Source: a phage. Taken from it: 64,000 bases of DNA. Location of the stretch: sequence record PX441839.1; one strand, written 5' to 3'. The notes below the pieces were generated by a model, which ran no database searches, was not told the origin of the DNA, and saw only the letters and a list, made by a program, of their open reading frames with translations. Below, piece by piece: positions 1,187 to 6,904 of the stretch (its first letter is position 1; every line of letters starts with the position of its first letter). The translations under genes and the position numbers were made by a program.

Positions 1187-1791
1187 AGTGTTTCCTCAAG
1201 GAATTTTCCAATGTCTTCCCACTTGTAGCTTTCAAAATCGTACTTTACACGAGGGGCCACTTCCTGACTATACGGGGTCAAGAATTTAACTTTAATAACA
1301 TCATCACTAAACTGATTGAGGAAGTTATTACGGTCATCAATAATTACCCCTCCAGCAACACCAGCCTTAACCTTTGTGGCATAAAAACCAGACCCATCTG
1401 ATCCTTTGTCCAAGTCAAGGAACGGGAAGTGATATTTCAAGAATCTCACTTTACTGCTGAAATGGCCCTTTTTGCAGTAAGATACAAAACGGATCGGGTG
1501 CCCAGCGTCATGAAGGCGTTTTATTACCTCAACACAATTAGTGTACGGCTTTAACTTATCGTACAGGTACGGGTCTTCCCAAAACTCGTATGGCCCAATC
1601 TGCTTTTTACATGCCGATGGGAAGTATCGGGAAAGATTATAATCAAAGAACCCTTTTGTATCTCGGTCCTCTATCATCAATCCATAATCCGCCGGAGTCT
1701 TATACACATCTTCCATCCAATCCAGCCATGCATTACCAGAGTCAACTACCGTCAGATCCACGTCAACAAGAATGGCTACTTTATTTTGCAT
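1183..1791 (-). CDS. HAD-superfamily phosphatase, putative 5'-deoxynucleotidase
   Basis: N-terminal ILVDVDLTVVDS matches HAD motif I (DxDxT/V); 202 aa. Confidence 0.5.
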   Translation of the reverse strand: MQNKVAILVDVDLTVVDSGNAWLDWMEDVYKTPADYGLMIEDRDTKGFFDYNLSRYFPSACKKQIGPYEFWEDPYLYDKLKPYTNCVEVIKRLHDAGHPIRFVSYCKKGHFSSKVRFLKYHFPFLDLDKGSDGSGFYATKVKAGVAGGVIIDDRNNFLNQFSDDVIKVKFLTPYSQEVAPRVKYDFESYKWEDIGKFLEETL

Positions 1792-2428
1792 TTAGGGTGT
1801 CCTCCATGAAATTGATAATTTCTTGTGCCGTCTCTGACACTTGGCCTTCACAGTTAGTAATGTCTGTTTCGTAAGGCTGACATTTCCGAGGAAACTCGCT
1901 GGAATAGATATATCTCCGAGAGTCTCCAGAAAAATCATACTCAGTCCCATCCTCTTTGAAACGGTGGATTCGTACCAGGAGATAGTTATCGGCACCTACC
2001 TGATTTACAACTGGAACAGATTCTTCCACGAACCCACCATCAGATACTACAACTACAATCTTCCTCGTTTCTCCGTATAACTCTTTTGCTAAGTTTTCAA
2101 GTTTTTTGGCAAAAGCTTTACCAAAAACATCGTTTCCGAACATAGGCTTCATTACGTTCTCTGAACAGTGGATCATCCATTGCCGTGGGGAAACATTCTT
2201 TCCATTTATCTGCAAGAATGGAACAGGCGTCTCTTTGTATTCTCTCTCATATAAAGCATCCCACAGTTTTCGGGTGATACCAGAAATTCTAACAGCCGCC
2301 TCAAACAGAAGCTCTTTAAACTCCATGTGTACAACATGGTACTCATTTGGATCAAGAAGTTTTTCAATTTCCTGACAAATGGTGTCTTTACCTGCCTTAG
2401 GTGGTGCATTCAGGTTTACGATAATCAT
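1781..2428 (-). CDS. P-loop kinase, deoxynucleoside monophosphate kinase-like
   Basis: N-terminus MIIVNLNAPPKAGKDT resembles T4 gp1 dNMP kinase GVKRSGKDT P-loop. Confidence 0.5.
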   Translation of the reverse strand: MIIVNLNAPPKAGKDTICQEIEKLLDPNEYHVVHMEFKELLFEAAVRISGITRKLWDALYEREYKETPVPFLQINGKNVSPRQWMIHCSENVMKPMFGNDVFGKAFAKKLENLAKELYGETRKIVVVVSDGGFVEESVPVVNQVGADNYLLVRIHRFKEDGTEYDFSGDSRRYIYSSEFPRKCQPYETDITNCEGQVSETAQEIINFMEDTLNAK

Positions 2429-2489
2429 CTCTTTCTCCTCTCCAGAATGTGTTGACTATTATACGCAACTGTTGACATATGTCAATAAA

Positions 2490-2515
2490 AAACCGCCCCG
2501 AAGGGCGGTTAAAAT
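2490..2515 (-). terminator. rho-independent terminator
   Basis: hairpin ACCGCCC-CGAA-GGGCGGT followed by T-run on minus strand, just downstream of exonuclease gene. Confidence 0.55.
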
Positions 2516-3561
2516 TAGAGAATGTTCGCCAGCGTCTTTTTCATCGCTGCCTTCTCGCGAACGTTCTTACGATCACGGGCACAAGAACCGCAACCTTGAC
2601 AACGGTAAACCTTAAACTTAGACAGATAGGTCGTTGCAAATTTACCCTTCTCCTCAACCATCTGATCCGACCCACAACGAACACACCGCATTACTGACTG
2701 GTCAGGATGGAACAGAGAGATGTTCGGGTGCTTTTTCATCCAAGGACGAACAGTTAAATACAGTTCTTCCAGCGTTGGGATGTCACCAATGTTATATGTT
2801 TCCATCTCTTCAAATGCAGAAGGATCTCCCTCTACGCAACGTCGCCACAGGTTGAAACCCTCATGGGACAGTTTACGGCTATCCAGTTCAAAATAGTTAC
2901 AGGCGGCTTCCAGCGCATTAGAGGGTAATGAAAATGCCTCTTTAAGTGCTTTCAAAGTGTCAATAACAACATAAGGACTCGGTGGCTTCATGCCGTAAAA
3001 TGCGAAACGTTGGTTTGCCCAGCCTTGGTCAAATCGTGCATTATGGGCAATAAAGATATCACATTCGTCGAGAATCTTCCACAGGTCTTCAACAAGCTTA
3101 CGATCTGATCGATGATCTCGGCTAAACTCTTCTGGGTAATCTGTCAGCTTCCGGCTGAAAATTGAAGGGTTGTGCAACCATTTCCCCGCAAAGGTGAGCA
3201 TGTACGGTTCCATAATTACCTGCTTCGGCGCAATAAATTGCTTAAATCGTCCAAACGAGTAAGCGATAGATGGTGATGTTTCAACATCTCCCAAGAACAC
3301 TTTTGCACCTGCTGCCTTCTGCTTTACACTCTCGATAAACTCAAGATCCTCCGGCGCAAAAGAACTCTCCGCCGATCCCTCACTTACCTTTAAGAGATCT
3401 ACTACGTTGTCAACTTCATAACGGGCCATTTCCCGACGAAGCATGTTACGAACAGTTGATTCTTGGGATTCTTTACCCAAGGTACGGGCAACCTCACGCT
3501 GGGACAGGCCAGCCTTCATAAGTTCCAGGACCTGCTCAATAGTGAATGTTACATTTGCCAT
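2515..3561 (-). CDS. DEDDh-type 3'-5' exonuclease with N-terminal HTH and C-terminal zinc ribbon
   Basis: Exo I-like GDVETSP, Exo II-like IFIAHNARFDQGW; N-terminal LSQREVARTLG helix-turn-helix; C-terminal CVRCG...CQGCGSC. Confidence 0.5.
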   Translation of the reverse strand: MANVTFTIEQVLELMKAGLSQREVARTLGKESQESTVRNMLRREMARYEVDNVVDLLKVSEGSAESSFAPEDLEFIESVKQKAAGAKVFLGDVETSPSIAYSFGRFKQFIAPKQVIMEPYMLTFAGKWLHNPSIFSRKLTDYPEEFSRDHRSDRKLVEDLWKILDECDIFIAHNARFDQGWANQRFAFYGMKPPSPYVVIDTLKALKEAFSLPSNALEAACNYFELDSRKLSHEGFNLWRRCVEGDPSAFEEMETYNIGDIPTLEELYLTVRPWMKKHPNISLFHPDQSVMRCVRCGSDQMVEEKGKFATTYLSKFKVYRCQGCGSCARDRKNVREKAAMKKTLANIL

Positions 3562-3580
3562 GCTTTAAATCTCCTCGGTG

Positions 3581-3811
3581 TTATACAAACTCAATAATGT
3601 CCTTTACAGCATAATCACGCAGGTCTTGCTTATCTACGTCAAAAGCTTTTATGAACCACTGACTGCCTTTATGATACGGACTCTCTCCGTACCAAAACAT
3701 AGGAACTCCCTCAATTGTGCGGTATCCGCACTCCCCTTTCCAATTCCGATAAAAGAACCGAATGTTTGGGCTGTCCATACCTGAGTACAAACTTCGATCA
3801 ATGTTGCTCAT
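3581..3811 (-). CDS. hypothetical protein
   Basis: ORF track 3581..3850 begins at a TTG; first ATG (MSNIDRS) with upstream GGAGG taken as start. Confidence 0.35.
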   Translation of the reverse strand: MSNIDRSLYSGMDSPNIRFFYRNWKGECGYRTIEGVPMFWYGESPYHKGSQWFIKAFDVDKQDLRDYAVKDIIEFV

Positions 3812-4370
3812 ATAGATAGTTGTCCTCCAATTGTCTGATGAACTCAGCAAGGTATTGCTGGATCATTTCCACCTTTTCAAGATCTTCACTTATGCTAATC
3901 CCGAGATTATTCATGGCGTTTCTGGATATTGTTTCCTTGGTTCTTGACCGAAGGGCCTTTTTCAAATCCTTGAGTATATCGTCATGGAAAGGTTTGTCGG
4001 AATTGTCCTGCTCAAGATAGTCTGCCAGTCTACGAAGGGCTTCACTCATCGTGATTTCCGTTTTCCCCTCTAGATGTTTAGACCACAGCTTTTGAACACT
4101 TCCTTCAAACATGTTTAATTCGGAACCAATAACTCCTCTACACTTGCCATCGAAGTGGTCATGGTCCAAACAAGGCTTATCCATTGGCTCTTTTAGTATA
4201 GCACAAACACCGCCTTGTTCGTCAAGAAGTTTTTTACGGTATGCCGTAAGTTTTGCACCAGCAACCCAATTACTTCTGTCGTAATCAACCTTGATCGGCT
4301 TAGTTACCTTTTCCTTCGATGTAAACCTTCGCGTCGTTGATCGCCCTGATTTCCTCATTCGTCTTGCCAC
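3798..4370 (-). CDS. recombination endonuclease VII-like (T4 gp49 family) nuclease
   Basis: GGVCAILKEPMDKPCLDHDHFDGKCRGVIGSELNMFEG matches the T4 endo VII C..C...HLDHDH...G.VRGL.C..CN..EG signature. Confidence 0.55.
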   Translation of the reverse strand: MARRMRKSGRSTTRRFTSKEKVTKPIKVDYDRSNWVAGAKLTAYRKKLLDEQGGVCAILKEPMDKPCLDHDHFDGKCRGVIGSELNMFEGSVQKLWSKHLEGKTEITMSEALRRLADYLEQDNSDKPFHDDILKDLKKALRSRTKETISRNAMNNLGISISEDLEKVEMIQQYLAEFIRQLEDNYLYEQH

Positions 4371-4953
4371 CGATACCCTCCATCATGACAGCAAAAAGAA
4401 ATTCTTCCCTTGTTGGATTAAAGGGATCTTCAAAATACTCAACCATCCCCCTTCTGAAAAGGCTTATGGGGAAATTGAAAGAGTCTGTCAATGATCTGCT
4501 GTCGGGACTCACTTCCTCCAGAAAACGTGACCTGCCTCGTAGTGTAAAACTCAGGAGGTTCTTCTCAAAAACATCACAACCTTCTGCCCTGATCCTTCCA
4601 CGAAGTATATCTATCTCCTCGGTATCATTAAGATCCTTTAAAGATCTTGTTGTTGCCAACACCTCCGAGATTTCCAATCCTCTTAAACGAGAATACCAAC
4701 AATGAGATATTGTGCTTATTGTTTGTATTTCATACGCCTTGTTGAACAGTGTATCATGTACCCTAACAGAGTAGCTCGGTCCATTCATCCTGAACTTTAT
4801 TCCAATCTCCTTGTCAAATACACTGCTCAACTCCCAGAGAATACTTTTCCTCTCTGTTGAGTCACGACAGACGATGTACTTTAGGGATGCTTGATCTTTA
4901 ATGCTTTCCCAATTCAGTTCTGAATCCCATTCGCTCAATGAAACACCTCCCAA
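4300..4953 (-). CDS. hypothetical protein (217 aa)
   Basis: ORF track; overlaps both flanking genes by more than 50 nt. Confidence 0.4.
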   Translation of the reverse strand: MGGVSLSEWDSELNWESIKDQASLKYIVCRDSTERKSILWELSSVFDKEIGIKFRMNGPSYSVRVHDTLFNKAYEIQTISTISHCWYSRLRGLEISEVLATTRSLKDLNDTEEIDILRGRIRAEGCDVFEKNLLSFTLRGRSRFLEEVSPDSRSLTDSFNFPISLFRRGMVEYFEDPFNPTREEFLFAVMMEGIGGKTNEEIRAINDAKVYIEGKGN

Positions 4954-5497
4954 TCAAATAGGCATCTGCCAGATCTGTTGAACCACCGTTTTTACCGCTC
5001 TTGGTGTATCCGTCCAAAAAGCCAGGATTCAACATCTCGCAAACCTTCATCATCTCATCCTTACCCATTTTAATCTTTACCATCTTACCTTTTTCATTGA
5101 GGTATTCTTGGTCTTGACCGGGCAATTGGTTACGTGCCCAAGACTTAACAGATGTCGGGGCAACCGTGTGGATCTTGTCCATAGTAAAGCCACTGTTCAG
5201 CAATGTCAACTGAATAATGAAAAACAAACCTGCCAGATCGCGGGTAGCATTACCTGCTGAACCAAAGCTGAGAGATTCAAGGACGACATACTCAGCATTG
5301 AATGATTTAGCCACTCCTGCAATTTTATCTGCGATATACTGCATTTGTTGAACTGGGTGGTCAAACTTAATCTGCCACGGCTTCGGTGTTCCTGAACCTG
5401 TTGTGTGGAGAACCTCCTTGAAGATTGGGACACCGTCTTCAAGAATTGTATATGCACAGGATGCCATACTCTGATCTATTGATAATACTCTCATTTT
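4898..5497 (-). CDS. RuvC-like Holliday junction resolvase
   Basis: MRVLSIDQS... N-terminus after AGGAG RBS; C-terminal DLADAYLIG resembles RuvC DAADALAIA; start refined from track 5584 to internal ATG. Confidence 0.5.
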   Translation of the reverse strand, partial: KMRVLSIDQSMASCAYTILEDGVPIFKEVLHTTGSGTPKPWQIKFDHPVQQMQYIADKIAGVAKSFNAEYVVLESLSFGSAGNATRDLAGLFFIIQLTLLNSGFTMDKIHTVAPTSVKSWARNQLPGQDQEYLNEKGKMVKIKMGKDEMMKVCEMLNPGFLDGYTKSGKNGGSTDLADAYLIGRCFIERMGFRTELGKH

Positions 5498-5795
5498 ATT
5501 CTCCTGTGGAGTGATATTTTTCCAAAATAAACACGTACTGTACGTACCGTTTATCGATCTCGTCATAAATACCAAACATAGCATACTTATCCCCCTTTAC
5601 AGGGGGTTCCATCAAGTATATGGCGCACTCATTACCTTGTTCATTATTCCACACAACAACCCAAGGATCTTCTTTCATTGTCCAAGGCTTATCAATAATG
5701 TAGATCATCTTACGTTCCCCTGGAACAAGACTTGCTCGTACATCATCTGCACGAAGCATACTCTCAACTTGCTCGTCAAAACTCGGTAAGGCCAT
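5496..5795 (-). CDS. hypothetical protein (99 aa)
   Basis: ORF track; co-oriented in operon. Confidence 0.4.
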   Translation of the reverse strand: MALPSFDEQVESMLRADDVRASLVPGERKMIYIIDKPWTMKEDPWVVVWNNEQGNECAIYLMEPPVKGDKYAMFGIYDEIDKRYVQYVFILEKYHSTGE

Positions 5796-6904
5796 TATAT
5801 TGCTCCCACTCTCTTAAGTACACTTGAAAGGGTTGTTGGGTCATTATATTCCCTCTTCATGTATACCGATTGAAAAATAACAGATGCCCACTGACCTGCT
5901 GTAAACTTCCGATCAATACCCATGTGGTCTGTGAAATGAACACCATCAGGGAACCACATCTTATACTGATTGATTATTGTTGTCCACATTTCTTTTTCCG
6001 TTTTACACCCAGCAAGGAGCTTAAATGCGGACACTTCCCCAAATTTAATATCGAAGTTCTGATACGGCTTGACGTTATCTGCACTATCCCCAAACAACAT
6101 CTGATAGCCAAAGAACAGTTGGCCCCATCCTTTAACCTTGTTGTTGTCCATCCAAATCTCACCCATAGATTCATCGATCAACCAACACTCAGGGTGTTTC
6201 CAGGTTCTCTCGTTTGAGTCTCGCATGGAGTTGAACAGAAGAGACGGAACTTGAACTTGGTCTTTATCGAAGGATGCTACAATGTGACTGAACTTTCCAG
6301 TCTTTTTGTAATTCATATACCCCTTGTACCCAAGTATGGACAGGTAATCGTCTGCCTCGATACCGTCAATAACTACCGCCCCGTACTTACGAACAACATA
6401 ATCCCGAGTCTCTTGCAGTAGGAGTGGTCGAATAGAATCTTCTCGGTTCCCCTTATAGATCTCAGGTGTAGGCAATGCCAATCTGAAATTACCACTTCCG
6501 CCCAAAACCCCGTGACCATTTGGACATTCAAGATGTTCAAGAATTGCGTTAATCTTTATCTTCAAAAGGTGTAGGCAGTTTTCAACTGGTTCTGGTGTTT
6601 GCTTATCAAGGATTTCGAAATCATCCCTTGTCCAAGGTACAAATTTACGACCGGAAGCTAAACACTGAGCCTCTCGGTTAATATTCTGATCCTTTAACCA
6701 CCCACCAACAACATTCTTCTGACGACCCCAGAACTCGGTTTTATTTTTAAATTCCTTCTCAGCACCAGACTTCTTGTGTCGGGCAATGATAGTTCTTTTT
6801 TCTGCACCTGCCGCCGCAACATAACATGTTTGGTCAAGATCAAGTGCAACAACCACATCGTCTGTTACAATACTTTTAAGATCCTTCACTACGGGATAAC
6901 CCAT
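5795..6904 (-). CDS. 5'-3' exonuclease / flap endonuclease (FEN, RNase H-like)
   Basis: GIEADDYLSILG matches the 5'-3' exonuclease G.EADD motif; 369 aa. Confidence 0.6.
   Translation of the reverse strand: MGYPVVKDLKSIVTDDVVVALDLDQTCYVAAAGAEKRTIIARHKKSGAEKEFKNKTEFWGRQKNVVGGWLKDQNINREAQCLASGRKFVPWTRDDFEILDKQTPEPVENCLHLLKIKINAILEHLECPNGHGVLGGSGNFRLALPTPEIYKGNREDSIRPLLLQETRDYVVRKYGAVVIDGIEADDYLSILGYKGYMNYKKTGKFSHIVASFDKDQVQVPSLLFNSMRDSNERTWKHPECWLIDESMGEIWMDNNKVKGWGQLFFGYQMLFGDSADNVKPYQNFDIKFGEVSAFKLLAGCKTEKEMWTTIINQYKMWFPDGVHFTDHMGIDRKFTAGQWASVIFQSVYMKREYNDPTTLSSVLKRVGAI

What the first reader, a model, noticed from the sequence alone, without database searches (positions are those of the whole stretch)
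2515..3561. Three-part nuclease: helix-turn-helix, DEDDh exonuclease core and zinc ribbon
A DnaQ-like 3'-5' exonuclease core (GDVETSP; IFIAHNARFDQGW) is fused to an N-terminal helix-turn-helix and a C-terminal CxxC...CxxC zinc ribbon. The fusion suggests a targeted or regulated exonuclease, possibly acting on host nucleic acids or signalling nucleotides, not a simple proofreading subunit.
Basis: partly seen in the sequence, partly recalled or inferred. Interest (0 to 1): 0.5.

Follow-up and report, generated by a model that had tools for sequence, protein, structure and literature searches.

The report
Phage stand-alone 3'-5' DNA exonuclease
This is a real three-domain phage exonuclease (DNA-binding helix-turn-helix, polymerase-B-type exonuclease core, zinc ribbon). 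It belongs to a very large, already catalogued but biochemically untested phage family, so it is ordinary rather than new.

Summary
The ORF at 2515..3561 (minus strand, 348 aa) is real, and the three-part layout is confirmed. It has an N-terminal tri-helical HTH (aa 8-48), a variable low-confidence linker, an exonuclease core (aa 87-285) and a C-terminal CxxC...CxxC zinc ribbon with a basic tail.

One detail is wrong. The core is DEDDy, not DEDDh. D92, E94, D178, Y256 and D260 are invariant in 148 diverse relatives, whereas H233 is not conserved. The nearest solved folds are family-B polymerase exonuclease domains, not DnaQ.

The window is about 98% identical to Salmonella phage SSBI34 (Vequintavirinae). 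The protein matches PHROG 403 over its full length (E 4.6e-112). The family has about 3600 50%-identity clusters and occurs in 1615 sequenced phages. I found no biochemical study of it.

It is the last gene of a nuclease operon (FEN-like 5'-exonuclease, RuvC-like, EndoVII), ahead of a separately promoted nucleotide-salvage unit, and this order recurs in six unrelated phage lineages.

The phage's own T7-like polymerase keeps its exonuclease carboxylates. Pol-less mycobacteriophages also carry the family. It is therefore probably a DNA 3'-end processing enzyme, not an obligate proofreading subunit. Nothing supports signalling-nucleotide cleavage.

One new observation: the HTH is retained while the exonuclease core has been swapped between related phages.

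The parts
2515..3561 (-). Complete CDS, 348 aa plus TAA stop at 2515-2517. Stand-alone DEDDy 3'-5' exonuclease, PHROG 403.
   Evidence: ORF list. PHROG 403 at E 4.6e-112, aa 5-347 against profile 4-320/321. 99% identical to SSBI34 QYC52458.
3376..3561 (-). N-terminal helical domain, aa 1-62. Tri-helical HTH (H1 8-16, H2 21-28, recognition helix 31-48) plus helix 53-63. Acidic to neutral (pI 5.3).
   Evidence: AF2 secondary structure. Pfam HTH_38/HTH_ParB at E about 0.03 on the query. HTH_38, HTH_23 and HTH_SB hits on aligned homologs. Found only on this gene, once per genome, in about 100 enterobacterial myoviruses. 69-90% identical to the L007 ortholog while the rest of the protein is 12-43%.
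3304..3375 (-). Variable linker, aa 63-86. Low-confidence segment 63-70, then helix 70-82.
   Evidence: pLDDT below 50 at 63-66, with block means 57-69. 0-28% identity and variable length among homologs.
2707..3303 (-). Exonuclease core, aa 87-285. RNase H-like fold, DEDDy type.
3271..3291 (-). ExoI motif GDVETSP, aa 91-97, with catalytic D92 and E94.
   Evidence: Invariant in A1, A2, A3 and A5.
3019..3057 (-). ExoII motif IFIAHNARFDQGW, aa 169-181, with catalytic D178. H173, N174 and F177 are nearly invariant.
2782..2796 (-). ExoIII motif YNIGD, aa 256-260. Y256 and D260 define the DEDDy class.
   Evidence: Invariant in 148 representatives and in ICP1, Tweety, XAJ24, Epa16, CVT22 and crAss members.
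2518..2706 (-). C-terminal zinc ribbon plus basic tail, aa 286-348. Knuckles C293-x2-C296 and C321-x2-C324, strands 301-310/315-321/327-333. pI 9.6, net charge +8.
   Evidence: Four Cys invariant in 148 representatives. AF2 strands at pLDDT 92-97. Zn_ribbon Pfam hits on relatives. Charge calculation. R329 invariant in A5.
3571..3576 (-). Shine-Dalgarno GAGGAG, 9 nt upstream of the ATG.
   Evidence: Read directly from the sequence.
2481..2510 (-). Intrinsic terminator. 8-bp stem with 6 GC pairs, a TTCG loop and a T-run, 4 nt after the stop codon. It ends the nuclease operon.
   Evidence: Terminator scan.
2458..2485 (-). Perfect sigma-70 consensus promoter (TTGACA-16-TATAAT, 12/12) driving the downstream dNMP kinase / nucleotide-salvage unit. 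It marks the operon boundary and is not part of the exonuclease gene.
   Evidence: Promoter scan.
3581..6904 (-). Genes upstream on the same strand, with no predicted minus-strand terminator between them. These are a FEN-like 5'-3' exonuclease (5795-6904, phrog_107), a RuvC-like resolvase (4898-5584, phrog_159), EndoVII (3798-4370, phrog_423) and three genes of unknown function.
   Evidence: PHROG and Pfam scans. No minus-strand terminator predicted between 2510 and 7300.

Best explanation
The gene encodes a catalytically competent, stand-alone, two-metal-ion 3'->5' DNA exonuclease of the DEDDy class, with a PolB-editing-domain-like fold.

The core hydrolyses nucleotides from free 3' ends. The basic C-terminal zinc ribbon most likely grips the nucleic-acid substrate. 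The flexibly tethered N-terminal HTH most likely anchors the enzyme to duplex DNA or to a lineage-specific partner.

It is expressed as the last gene of a nuclease operon with a FEN-like 5'-exonuclease, a RuvC-like resolvase and EndoVII. It acts in phage DNA metabolism by trimming 3' ends and 3' flaps of replication/recombination intermediates. Like T7 gp3/gp6, it probably also helps break DNA down to dNMPs for the adjacent dNMP-kinase/ThyX/RNR salvage unit. It is not an obligate proofreading subunit of the phage polymerase.

Shown here: the ORF, the domain layout, conservation of the catalytic and Cys residues, the fold relationship, the operon structure and the cross-lineage synteny.

Inferred: DNA as the substrate, the roles of the ribbon and the HTH, and the biological role.
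For: - Active site intact. D92, E94, D178, Y256 and D260 are invariant in 148 representatives at 30-68% identity and in six distant phage lineages.
- Zinc ribbon. The four Cys are invariant, the C-terminus has pI 9.6, and the strands are confidently modelled.
- Operon. A terminator and a 12/12 promoter lie immediately downstream. The upstream genes are FEN-like, RuvC-like and EndoVII.
- Synteny. The order 5'-exonuclease -> (EndoVII/HNH) -> this gene -> ThyX/RNR or ligase recurs in ICP1, a Zobellviridae podovirus, PaulScherrer, Epa16, phiKMV-like XAJ24 and CVT22.
- Not Pol-dependent. The phage PolA keeps D8, E10, D88 and D191 and lies about 72 kb away. Tweety gp35 sits beside the lysis and integrase genes, with no DNA polymerase annotated among genes 20-109.
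- Activity in cells. Girr gp37 (273 aa, annotated DnaQ-like exonuclease) is growth-inhibitory when overexpressed (PMC11075535). Its membership in this family was not tested; it is inferred from the same-position genes 35-37 of other F1 phages that matched.
Against: - I found no biochemical or genetic data for any member. Substrate and role rest on fold and context.
- The phage Pol has Arg (R187) where the ExoIII Tyr normally sits. Its own editing could be weakened, which leaves room for a helper.
- In small podoviruses the gene lies close to PolA.
- The N-terminal domain is not basic (pI 5.3), so it may bind protein rather than DNA.
- The relative placement of the domains is uncertain (pTM 0.75 against pLDDT 91.6).
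- In a crAss-like phage the neighbourhood differs.
Confidence: 0.6

Rival explanations
1. Trans-acting proofreading subunit. The protein docks on the phage family-A polymerase or replisome and removes misincorporated 3' nucleotides, as epsilon does for Pol III. The HTH or ribbon would serve as the docking module.
For: - Public annotations read 'DNA polymerase exonuclease subunit' or 'Pol III epsilon'.
- The fold is that of polymerase editing domains.
- The gene lies a few kb from PolA in Zobellviridae and phiKMV-like podoviruses.
- The Vequintavirinae-type Pol has Arg instead of the ExoIII Tyr, which could weaken cis editing.
- The lineage-specific N-terminal domain is retained across core swaps, as expected for a partner-binding adaptor.
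Against: - The phage Pol keeps all four ExoI-III carboxylates, invariant or nearly so.
- The gene is about 72 kb from the Pol and sits in a nuclease operon.
- Family members occur in Tweety, where no DNA polymerase is annotated among genes 20-109.
- There is no similarity to epsilon outside the core (aa 144-235 only, E 0.005). The C-terminus is a zinc ribbon, not epsilon's alpha-binding tail.
- The annotation names derive from homology, not experiment.
Confidence: 0.17
2. Anti-defence or signalling nuclease. The enzyme would degrade host immune nucleic acids or nucleotide signals, such as cyclic oligonucleotides, retron msDNA, DRT cDNA or short oligonucleotides, or host RNA.
For: - The accessory HTH and zinc-ribbon domains could confer specificity.
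- The exonuclease core is exchanged between related phages, a pattern sometimes seen for arms-race genes.
Against: - The closest folds are DNA-polymerase editing domains.
- The genomic position among core DNA-metabolism genes is stable across six phage lineages, not in variable accessory regions.
- There is one copy per genome in 1615 phage records, typical of a core function.
- No defence-related neighbours were seen.
- No literature link was found. The one anti-retron candidate checked, Rad, is an unrelated Toprim protein.
Confidence: 0.07
3. Primarily a DNA-binding regulator. The HTH would make it a transcription factor or autoregulator, with the nuclease fold secondary or vestigial.
For: The N-terminal domain is a transposase/resolvase/sigma-r4-type HTH. 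It is more conserved than the rest of the protein within this phage group.
Against: - All five catalytic residues and the four Cys are invariant across thousands of relatives.
- 22 of 148 relatives have fewer than 40 residues before the ExoI Asp, too few for a full N-terminal domain, so the family's conserved function lies in the nuclease.
- No repeated operator-like sites were sought or seen.
Confidence: 0.04

Closest known systems
PHROG 403 / Pfam PF13482 (RNase_H_2) phage cluster. This is cluster F.23 'PF13482 from various phages' in Majorek et al. 2014 (PMC3985635). Examples are Pseudomonas phage LKA1 Q0E5Y0, ICP1 gp189 and, from its annotation and position, mycobacteriophage Girr gp37.
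   Same: - Full-length profile match.
- Same three-part layout in most members.
- Same DEDDy pentad and four Cys.
- Same genomic position next to the 5'-exonuclease, EndoVII and thymidylate synthase.
   Different: Nothing essential differs, so this protein is a member. The specific N-terminal HTH sequence is restricted to about 100 enterobacterial 140-150 kb myoviruses. Other lineages carry unrelated or no N-terminal extensions.
3'-5' exonuclease (editing) domain of family-B DNA polymerases, such as Thermococcus Tgo/KOD, E. coli Pol II and Pol epsilon.
   Different: This protein is stand-alone, with no polymerase palm, fingers or thumb. Sequence identity is only 11-16%. It carries an HTH and a zinc ribbon that PolB editing domains lack.
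E. coli DnaQ (Pol III epsilon), the DEDDh proofreading subunit.
   Different: - ExoIII is Y-x3-D, not H-x4-D. The His that aligns with epsilon H162 is not conserved.
- There is no epsilon C-terminal alpha-binding segment; a zinc ribbon sits there instead.
- The public annotation 'Pol III epsilon subunit' is therefore a misnomer.
[not shown]
   Different: Those enzymes are DEDDh and have no HTH or zinc ribbon. There is no detectable sequence relationship beyond the superfamily level.
T7 class II DNA-metabolism module (gp3 endonuclease I, gp5 polymerase, gp6 5'-3' exonuclease). This comparison rests on my own knowledge.
   Same: The gene context is the same kind: a 5'-3' exonuclease plus a junction-resolving endonuclease next to nucleotide-metabolism genes. 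In phiKMV-like XAJ24 the order is Pol, 5'-exonuclease, EndoVII, then this gene.
   Different: T7 itself has no separate 3'-5' exonuclease. That activity resides in gp5.

Membership tests
DEDDh exonucleases (DnaQ/epsilon, RNase T; Pfam PF00929) | ExoIII motif H-x4-D, with a conserved His as the fifth catalytic residue. | tested here: not met
   H233, paired with epsilon H162 by phmmer, has no Asp at +5 and is H/N/T/V in homologs. It is absent from the invariant lists of 72 and 148 sequences.
DEDDh exonucleases (DnaQ/epsilon, RNase T; Pfam PF00929) | Pfam PF00929 score above the gathering threshold. | tested here: met
   29.1 bits against a cut-off of 24, but the match covers only aa 132-234 (ExoII region) and stops before ExoIII.
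DEDD superfamily (RNase H-like 3'-5' exonucleases) | Four invariant carboxylates in ExoI (D-x-E), ExoII (D) and ExoIII (D). | tested here: met
   D92, E94, D178 and D260 are invariant in 24, 72, 148 and 10 sequence alignments.
DEDDy subclass / PolB-exonuclease-like (PF13482, PF10108, PF03104) | ExoIII motif Y-x3-D. | tested here: met
   Y256-N-I-G-D260. Both residues are invariant.
DEDDy subclass / PolB-exonuclease-like (PF13482, PF10108, PF03104) | Fold closest to family-B polymerase editing domains. | tested here: met
   [not shown]
DEDDy subclass / PolB-exonuclease-like (PF13482, PF10108, PF03104) | Pfam PF13482 score above the gathering threshold on the query itself. | tested here: inconclusive
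   The query scores 18.7 bits, below the cut-off of 22. However, 139/148 relatives match at E<=1e-3 (best 7e-15), and 50/148 match PF10108.
PHROG 403 ('DNA polymerase exonuclease subunit') | Full-length match to the family profile. | tested here: met
   E 4.6e-112, 375 bits, aa 5-347 against profile positions 4-320 of 321.
Pol III epsilon-type proofreading subunit (functional class) | A polymerase-binding element, with physical and functional coupling to a polymerase that lacks its own editing site. | tested here: not met
   There is no similarity to epsilon outside the core, and the C-terminus is a zinc ribbon. The phage PolA keeps D8, E10, D88 and D191 and is encoded about 72 kb away. Physical interaction was not testable.
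Zinc ribbon | Two CxxC knuckles flanking a three-stranded antiparallel sheet. | tested here: met
   C293/C296 and C321/C324 are invariant in 148 sequences. Strands lie at 301-310, 315-321 and 327-333 with pLDDT 92-97. Zn_ribbon Pfam families hit relatives.
Zinc ribbon | Actual Zn2+ coordination. | not testable with these tools
   Needs metal analysis (ICP-MS or PAR assay) of purified protein.
Helix-turn-helix DNA-binding domains (HTH_38 / HTH_23 / HTH_SB type) | A tri-helical bundle with a turn between helices 2 and 3, matching HTH profiles. | tested here: inconclusive
   The query is sub-threshold (HTH_38 at 14.3 bits against 27, HTH_ParB at 15.1 against 22.6). AF2 gives helices 8-16, 21-28 and 31-48. 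Aligned homologs hit HTH_38 (14/72, 9e-6), HTH_23 (9/72, 7e-7) and HTH_SB (9/72). The fold assignment is likely correct; DNA binding is untested and the domain is not basic (pI 5.3).

The most novel reading that the evidence does not exclude
The N-terminal HTH may be a lineage-specific targeting adaptor. It is kept at 69-90% identity across related enterobacterial myoviruses while the exonuclease core behind it has been replaced by a distant type that is closer to the ICP1 and phiKMV versions and has even lost the zinc-ribbon cysteines. If so, the exonuclease would be directed to a specific DNA site or partner, such as genome ends, an origin or a replisome or recombination protein. That would make it a 'programmable-address' 3'-5' exonuclease rather than a general DNase.
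Probability: 0.2. Interest if true: 0.5.

Novelty: already known. Interest (0 to 1): 0.27.

Why it matters
In practice this corrects an annotation. The protein is deposited as 'DNA polymerase III epsilon subunit', but it is a DEDDy, PolB-editing-like stand-alone exonuclease with an HTH and a zinc ribbon, and probably not a proofreading subunit.

More broadly, this is one of the larger phage nuclease families without any biochemistry. It has about 3600 50%-identity clusters and occurs in 1615 sequenced phages, including ICP1, phiKMV-like phages, PAK_P1-like phages, crAss-like phages and many mycobacteriophages. The conserved pairing with a FEN-like 5'-exonuclease and EndoVII suggests a defined, testable role in phage DNA processing. 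The HTH-retaining core swap offers a simple genetic handle on what the HTH does.

None of this is surprising to a specialist, and the finding as given is an ordinary, already catalogued phage gene.

Tried and rejected
1. DnaQ/DEDDh assignment. Rejected on conservation and fold ranking.

2. 'Unusual fusion'. Rejected. The PHROG 403 profile already spans all three parts, and most of 148 diverse relatives have the N-terminal extension and all have the four Cys.

3. Other proteins carrying the same N-terminal module. tblastn of aa 1-62 against 50,697 phage genomes found only this gene, once per genome. The third homologous-protein search was left unused for that reason.

4. A second paralogue in the same genome. 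None was found: one place per record.

5. Literature on function. Searches used DnaQ-like+zinc, ICP1 gp189, DEDDy/PolB, PF13482/PF10108/YprB/COG3298, DnaQ-like+mycobacteriophage, anti-defense exonuclease and the phrase 'DNA polymerase exonuclease subunit'. They returned only a classification paper, genome reports and overexpression-toxicity screens. The T5 'Rad' anti-retron protein proved to be an unrelated Toprim protein.

6. Pol N-terminus against the PDB by phmmer. Not significant on its own. A pairwise MAFFT alignment with T7 gp5 was ambiguous at ExoIII. It was resolved only by adding homologs.

7. afdb50 fold search. The library was unavailable, so BFVD was used instead.

I could not examine how the ribbon or the HTH pack against the active site.

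9. The second structure-prediction job (for example the Cys-less variant) was not used, because it would not change the verdict.
Full report
**1. The observation**

The window holds an uninterrupted 348-codon ORF at 2515..3561 on the minus strand. A GAGGAG Shine-Dalgarno lies 9 nt upstream of the ATG. A strong intrinsic terminator starts 4 nt after the TAA stop, at 2510..2491 on the minus strand. The gene is real. It matches PHROG 403 at E 4.6e-112 over its whole length. It has 3612 relatives among 50%-identity cluster representatives at E<=1e-3, of which 728 are at E<=1e-30.

**2. Where it comes from**

The region is about 98% identical in DNA to Salmonella phage SSBI34 (MZ520832), a Vequintavirinae myovirus of the CR3/phiTE type. 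The protein is 99% identical to SSBI34 QYC52458, which is deposited as 'DNA polymerase III, epsilon subunit'. Relatives were found by tblastn in 1615 of 50,697 phage records, with one match in all but two. They include mycobacteriophages, ICP1, phiKMV-like and Zobellviridae podoviruses, PAK_P1-like myoviruses and crAss-like phages.

**3. Anatomy**

An AlphaFold2 model built on 72 homologs is confident (mean pLDDT 91.6, pTM 0.75). It shows four parts:

- An N-terminal helical domain, with helices at 8-16, 21-28, 31-48 and 53-63.
- A low-confidence linker at 63-70, followed by helix 70-82.
- An alpha/beta core at 88-275.
- A three-stranded sheet at 301-333, set between the two CxxC knuckles.

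The gap between pTM and pLDDT, together with the poor linker, suggests the N-domain is flexibly tethered. That is an inference.

The N-domain is only weakly HTH-like on the query itself (HTH_38 and HTH_ParB at E about 0.03). Homologs aligned at the same positions hit HTH_38 (14/72, best 9e-6), HTH_23 (9/72, best 7e-7) and HTH_SB (9/72). So a transposase/resolvase-type HTH is a fair call.

The C-terminal 63 residues are strongly basic (pI 9.6, net +8). The N-domain is not (pI 5.3).

**4. DEDDy, not DEDDh**

In alignments of 24, 72 and 148 increasingly diverse relatives, the invariant residues are D92, E94, D178, Y256 and D260. In the 148-sequence set, C293, C296, C321 and C324 are invariant as well.

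H233 is the residue phmmer paired with epsilon H162. It varies (H/N/T/V) and has no Asp at +5. ExoIII is therefore Y-x3-D.

The fold evidence agrees:

- All of Foldseek's top 50 solved matches are family-B polymerase editing domains.
- Among 148 relatives, 139 hit PF13482, 50 hit PF10108 ('PolB-related exonuclease'), 22 hit PF03104 and 55 hit PF00929.

The RNase_T hit on the query covers only the ExoII region (aa 132-234), which explains the 'DnaQ-like' label. A published classification already placed 'PF13482 from various phages' next to the PolB exonuclease clusters and listed it as uncharacterised (PMC3985635).

**5. The three-part layout is the family norm**

The PHROG 403 profile spans all three parts. 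Of 148 diverse representatives, 126 have 40 or more residues before the ExoI Asp, with a mode of 60-79. Where these extensions can be classified they are HTH-type.

All 148 representatives have the four Cys. So do ICP1 gp189, Tweety gp35, XAJ24, Epa16, CVT22 and a crAss-like member. The best viral structural match, phage LKA1 Q0E5Y0, aligns over the full length. The 'fusion' is thus an old, widespread architecture and not a peculiarity of this gene.

**6. Context and expression**

The gene is the last in a same-strand run of:

- a FEN-like 5'-exonuclease (5795-6904, phrog_107),
- a gene of unknown function,
- a RuvC-like resolvase (4898-5584, phrog_159),
- a gene of unknown function,
- EndoVII (3798-4370, phrog_423 and Pfam Endonuclease_7),
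- a gene of unknown function,
- and then this gene.

The terminator is followed at once by a perfect 12/12 sigma-70 promoter at 2485..2458. That promoter heads a unit with a dNMP kinase (1781-2428, phrog_139), an NT5C-like nucleotidase (1183-1791) and, further on, ThyX and RNR.

The order 5'-exonuclease -> (EndoVII/HNH) -> this exonuclease -> thymidylate synthase/RNR or ligase recurs in six unrelated lineages:

- ICP1
- the Zobellviridae podovirus FBPa8, where the gene annotated as a second 'DNA polymerase I' is actually a FEN
- PaulScherrer, where the gene is immediately adjacent to the 5'-exonuclease
- Epa16
- phiKMV-like XAJ24, with the order exonuclease, EndoVII, this gene
- CVT22

A crAss-like phage differs.

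**7. Is it the polymerase's proofreader?**

The phage polymerase is a T7-gp5-like family-A enzyme of 875 aa, encoded about 72 kb away and outside the window. Its N-terminus carries ExoI (GDAEASG) and ExoII (HNLFGYD).

A pairwise alignment with T7 gp5 was ambiguous at ExoIII. With homologs added, T7 D5, E7, D65 and D174 pair with D8, E10, D88 and D191. D88 and D191 are invariant, E10 is at least 90% conserved, and D8 is conserved in most of the 14 sequences. A near-invariant Arg (R187) replaces the ExoIII Tyr.

The Pol therefore probably edits by itself, although the Arg substitution leaves some doubt. Tweety, a temperate cluster F1 mycobacteriophage, carries a family member next to its lysis and integrase genes, and no DNA polymerase is annotated among genes 20-109. 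So the family is not an obligate partner of a phage polymerase.

The only experimental data I found are overexpression screens. In these, Girr gp37 (273 aa, annotated DnaQ-like exonuclease) inhibits M. smegmatis growth (PMC11075535). That fits an active nuclease but says nothing about its role. Girr gp37 was not itself aligned or searched here; I treat it as a family member because genes 35-37 of other F1 phages, in the same position, matched. The toxic cluster K 'DnaQ-like' proteins in the same papers (for example Amelie gp49, 183 aa, a different pham) were not shown to belong to this family.

**8. Most likely mechanism**

*Shown:* an intact DEDDy two-metal site, a conserved zinc ribbon with a basic tail, a tethered HTH, and co-location with branched-DNA nucleases.

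*Inferred:* the enzyme removes nucleotides from DNA 3' ends, with the ribbon and tail holding the substrate and the HTH anchoring the enzyme to duplex DNA or to a partner protein. Together with the FEN-like enzyme (5' flaps), the resolvases and a ligase, it would process replication and recombination intermediates. As with T7 gp3/gp6 (my own knowledge), it may also help convert DNA into dNMPs for the adjacent salvage genes.

I put this at about 0.6. The rivals are a trans-acting proofreader (about 0.17), an anti-defence, RNA or signalling-nucleotide nuclease (about 0.07), and a primarily regulatory role (about 0.04). Nothing found here supports cleavage of signalling nucleotides.

**9. A new observation: the core has been swapped behind a fixed HTH**

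Within the enterobacterial 140-150 kb myoviruses, the N-terminal 48 residues are equally conserved in two sets of orthologs. P0016 is 77% identical there, and P0110, P0111 and P0113 are 74-77% identical. The core, however, is 85% identical in the first set and only 32-36% in the second, and the second set lacks the ribbon cysteines.

P0113 sits in a fully syntenic locus of a 141-kb contig. Identity along the gene falls from 69-90% (aa 1-58) to 12-43% thereafter.

That alternative core is 75% identical to Klebsiella myovirus versions and 43-50% to ICP1 and phiKMV-type versions. This is far closer than to the window's own type.

The N-terminal module was found only on this gene, once per genome, in about 100 phages. 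This points to intragenic recombination that keeps a lineage-specific HTH in front of interchangeable exonuclease cores. It is the best available hint that the HTH has a lineage-specific target, whether DNA site or protein partner. It remains an inference.

**10. Verdict**

The gene and the three-domain architecture are real, but the catalytic class was wrong.

The object is an already deposited and catalogued member of a very large phage family, so novelty is low. Its residual interest is that the family has no biochemistry, and that the public annotation as 'Pol III epsilon' is misleading.

Noticed in passing
window 2458-2510 (minus strand): A strong intrinsic terminator (AACCGCCC-TTCG-GGGCGGTT plus a T-run) is followed directly by a perfect consensus sigma-70 promoter (TTGACA-16 nt-TATAAT, 12/12). 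The pair lies between the exonuclease gene and the dNMP-kinase gene and forms a clean operon boundary using host-type signals.
   Followed up: partly
window 3388-3561 (aa 1-58) versus L007:8001-9047: Intragenic mosaicism. The HTH is 69-90% identical to the ortholog in a syntenic 141-kb contig, while the rest of the protein is 12-43% identical and of a different sub-type that is ICP1/phiKMV-like and lacks the Cys. The same N-terminal module therefore sits on two exonuclease core types in related phages.
   Followed up: yes
window 1781-2428 (minus strand): This neighbour matches PHROG 139, deoxynucleoside monophosphate kinase (E 5e-44), and has a P-loop. In SSBI34 it is deposited as 'ribulose-phosphate 3-epimerase', which is probably a mis-annotation. 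Several other SSBI34 product names also look spurious, such as 'ribosomal protein uS19', 'Ti-type conjugative transfer relaxase' and 'fatty oxidation complex'.
   Followed up: partly
L003:1586-4213 (SSBI34 DNA polymerase, outside the window): The T7-gp5-like PolA of this phage group keeps the ExoI/II/III carboxylates but has a near-invariant Arg (R187) where the ExoIII Tyr of T7 gp5 (Y170) sits. This is an unusual 'DEDD-R' editing site whose activity is unknown.
   Followed up: partly
P0273-P0285 (metagenomic proteins found with the Pol N-terminus): Many 175-200 aa ORFs consist only of the T7-like polymerase exonuclease domain and end right after ExoIII. P0271 is a 157-aa 'DNA polymerase' fragment in Escherichia phage A5-4. 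This suggests that polymerase genes in this phage group are often split, perhaps by introns or homing endonucleases.
   Followed up: no
window 3581-3850 (minus strand): A small ORF (89 aa as listed; about 74-76 aa in related annotations) lies directly upstream of the exonuclease. It matches PHROG 3715 (unknown function, E 1e-24), has a weak sub-threshold WYL-domain hit (E 0.003), and overlaps the 3' end of the EndoVII ORF. It is conserved in the syntenic relative at 68% identity.
   Followed up: no
window 4300-4953 and 5496-5795 (minus strand): Two conserved genes of unknown function (PHROG 12410 and PHROG 13101) are interleaved with the FEN-like, RuvC-like and EndoVII genes in the same transcription unit. 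They may be accessory factors of the nuclease module.
   Followed up: no
L005:3446-4318 (Pseudomonas phage FBPa8): The second gene annotated 'DNA polymerase I' in this podovirus is actually a FEN-type 5'-3' exonuclease (Pfam 5_3_exonuc and 5_3_exonuc_N). The apparent 'split polymerase' next to the exonuclease family member is therefore PolA plus a separate FEN.
   Followed up: partly
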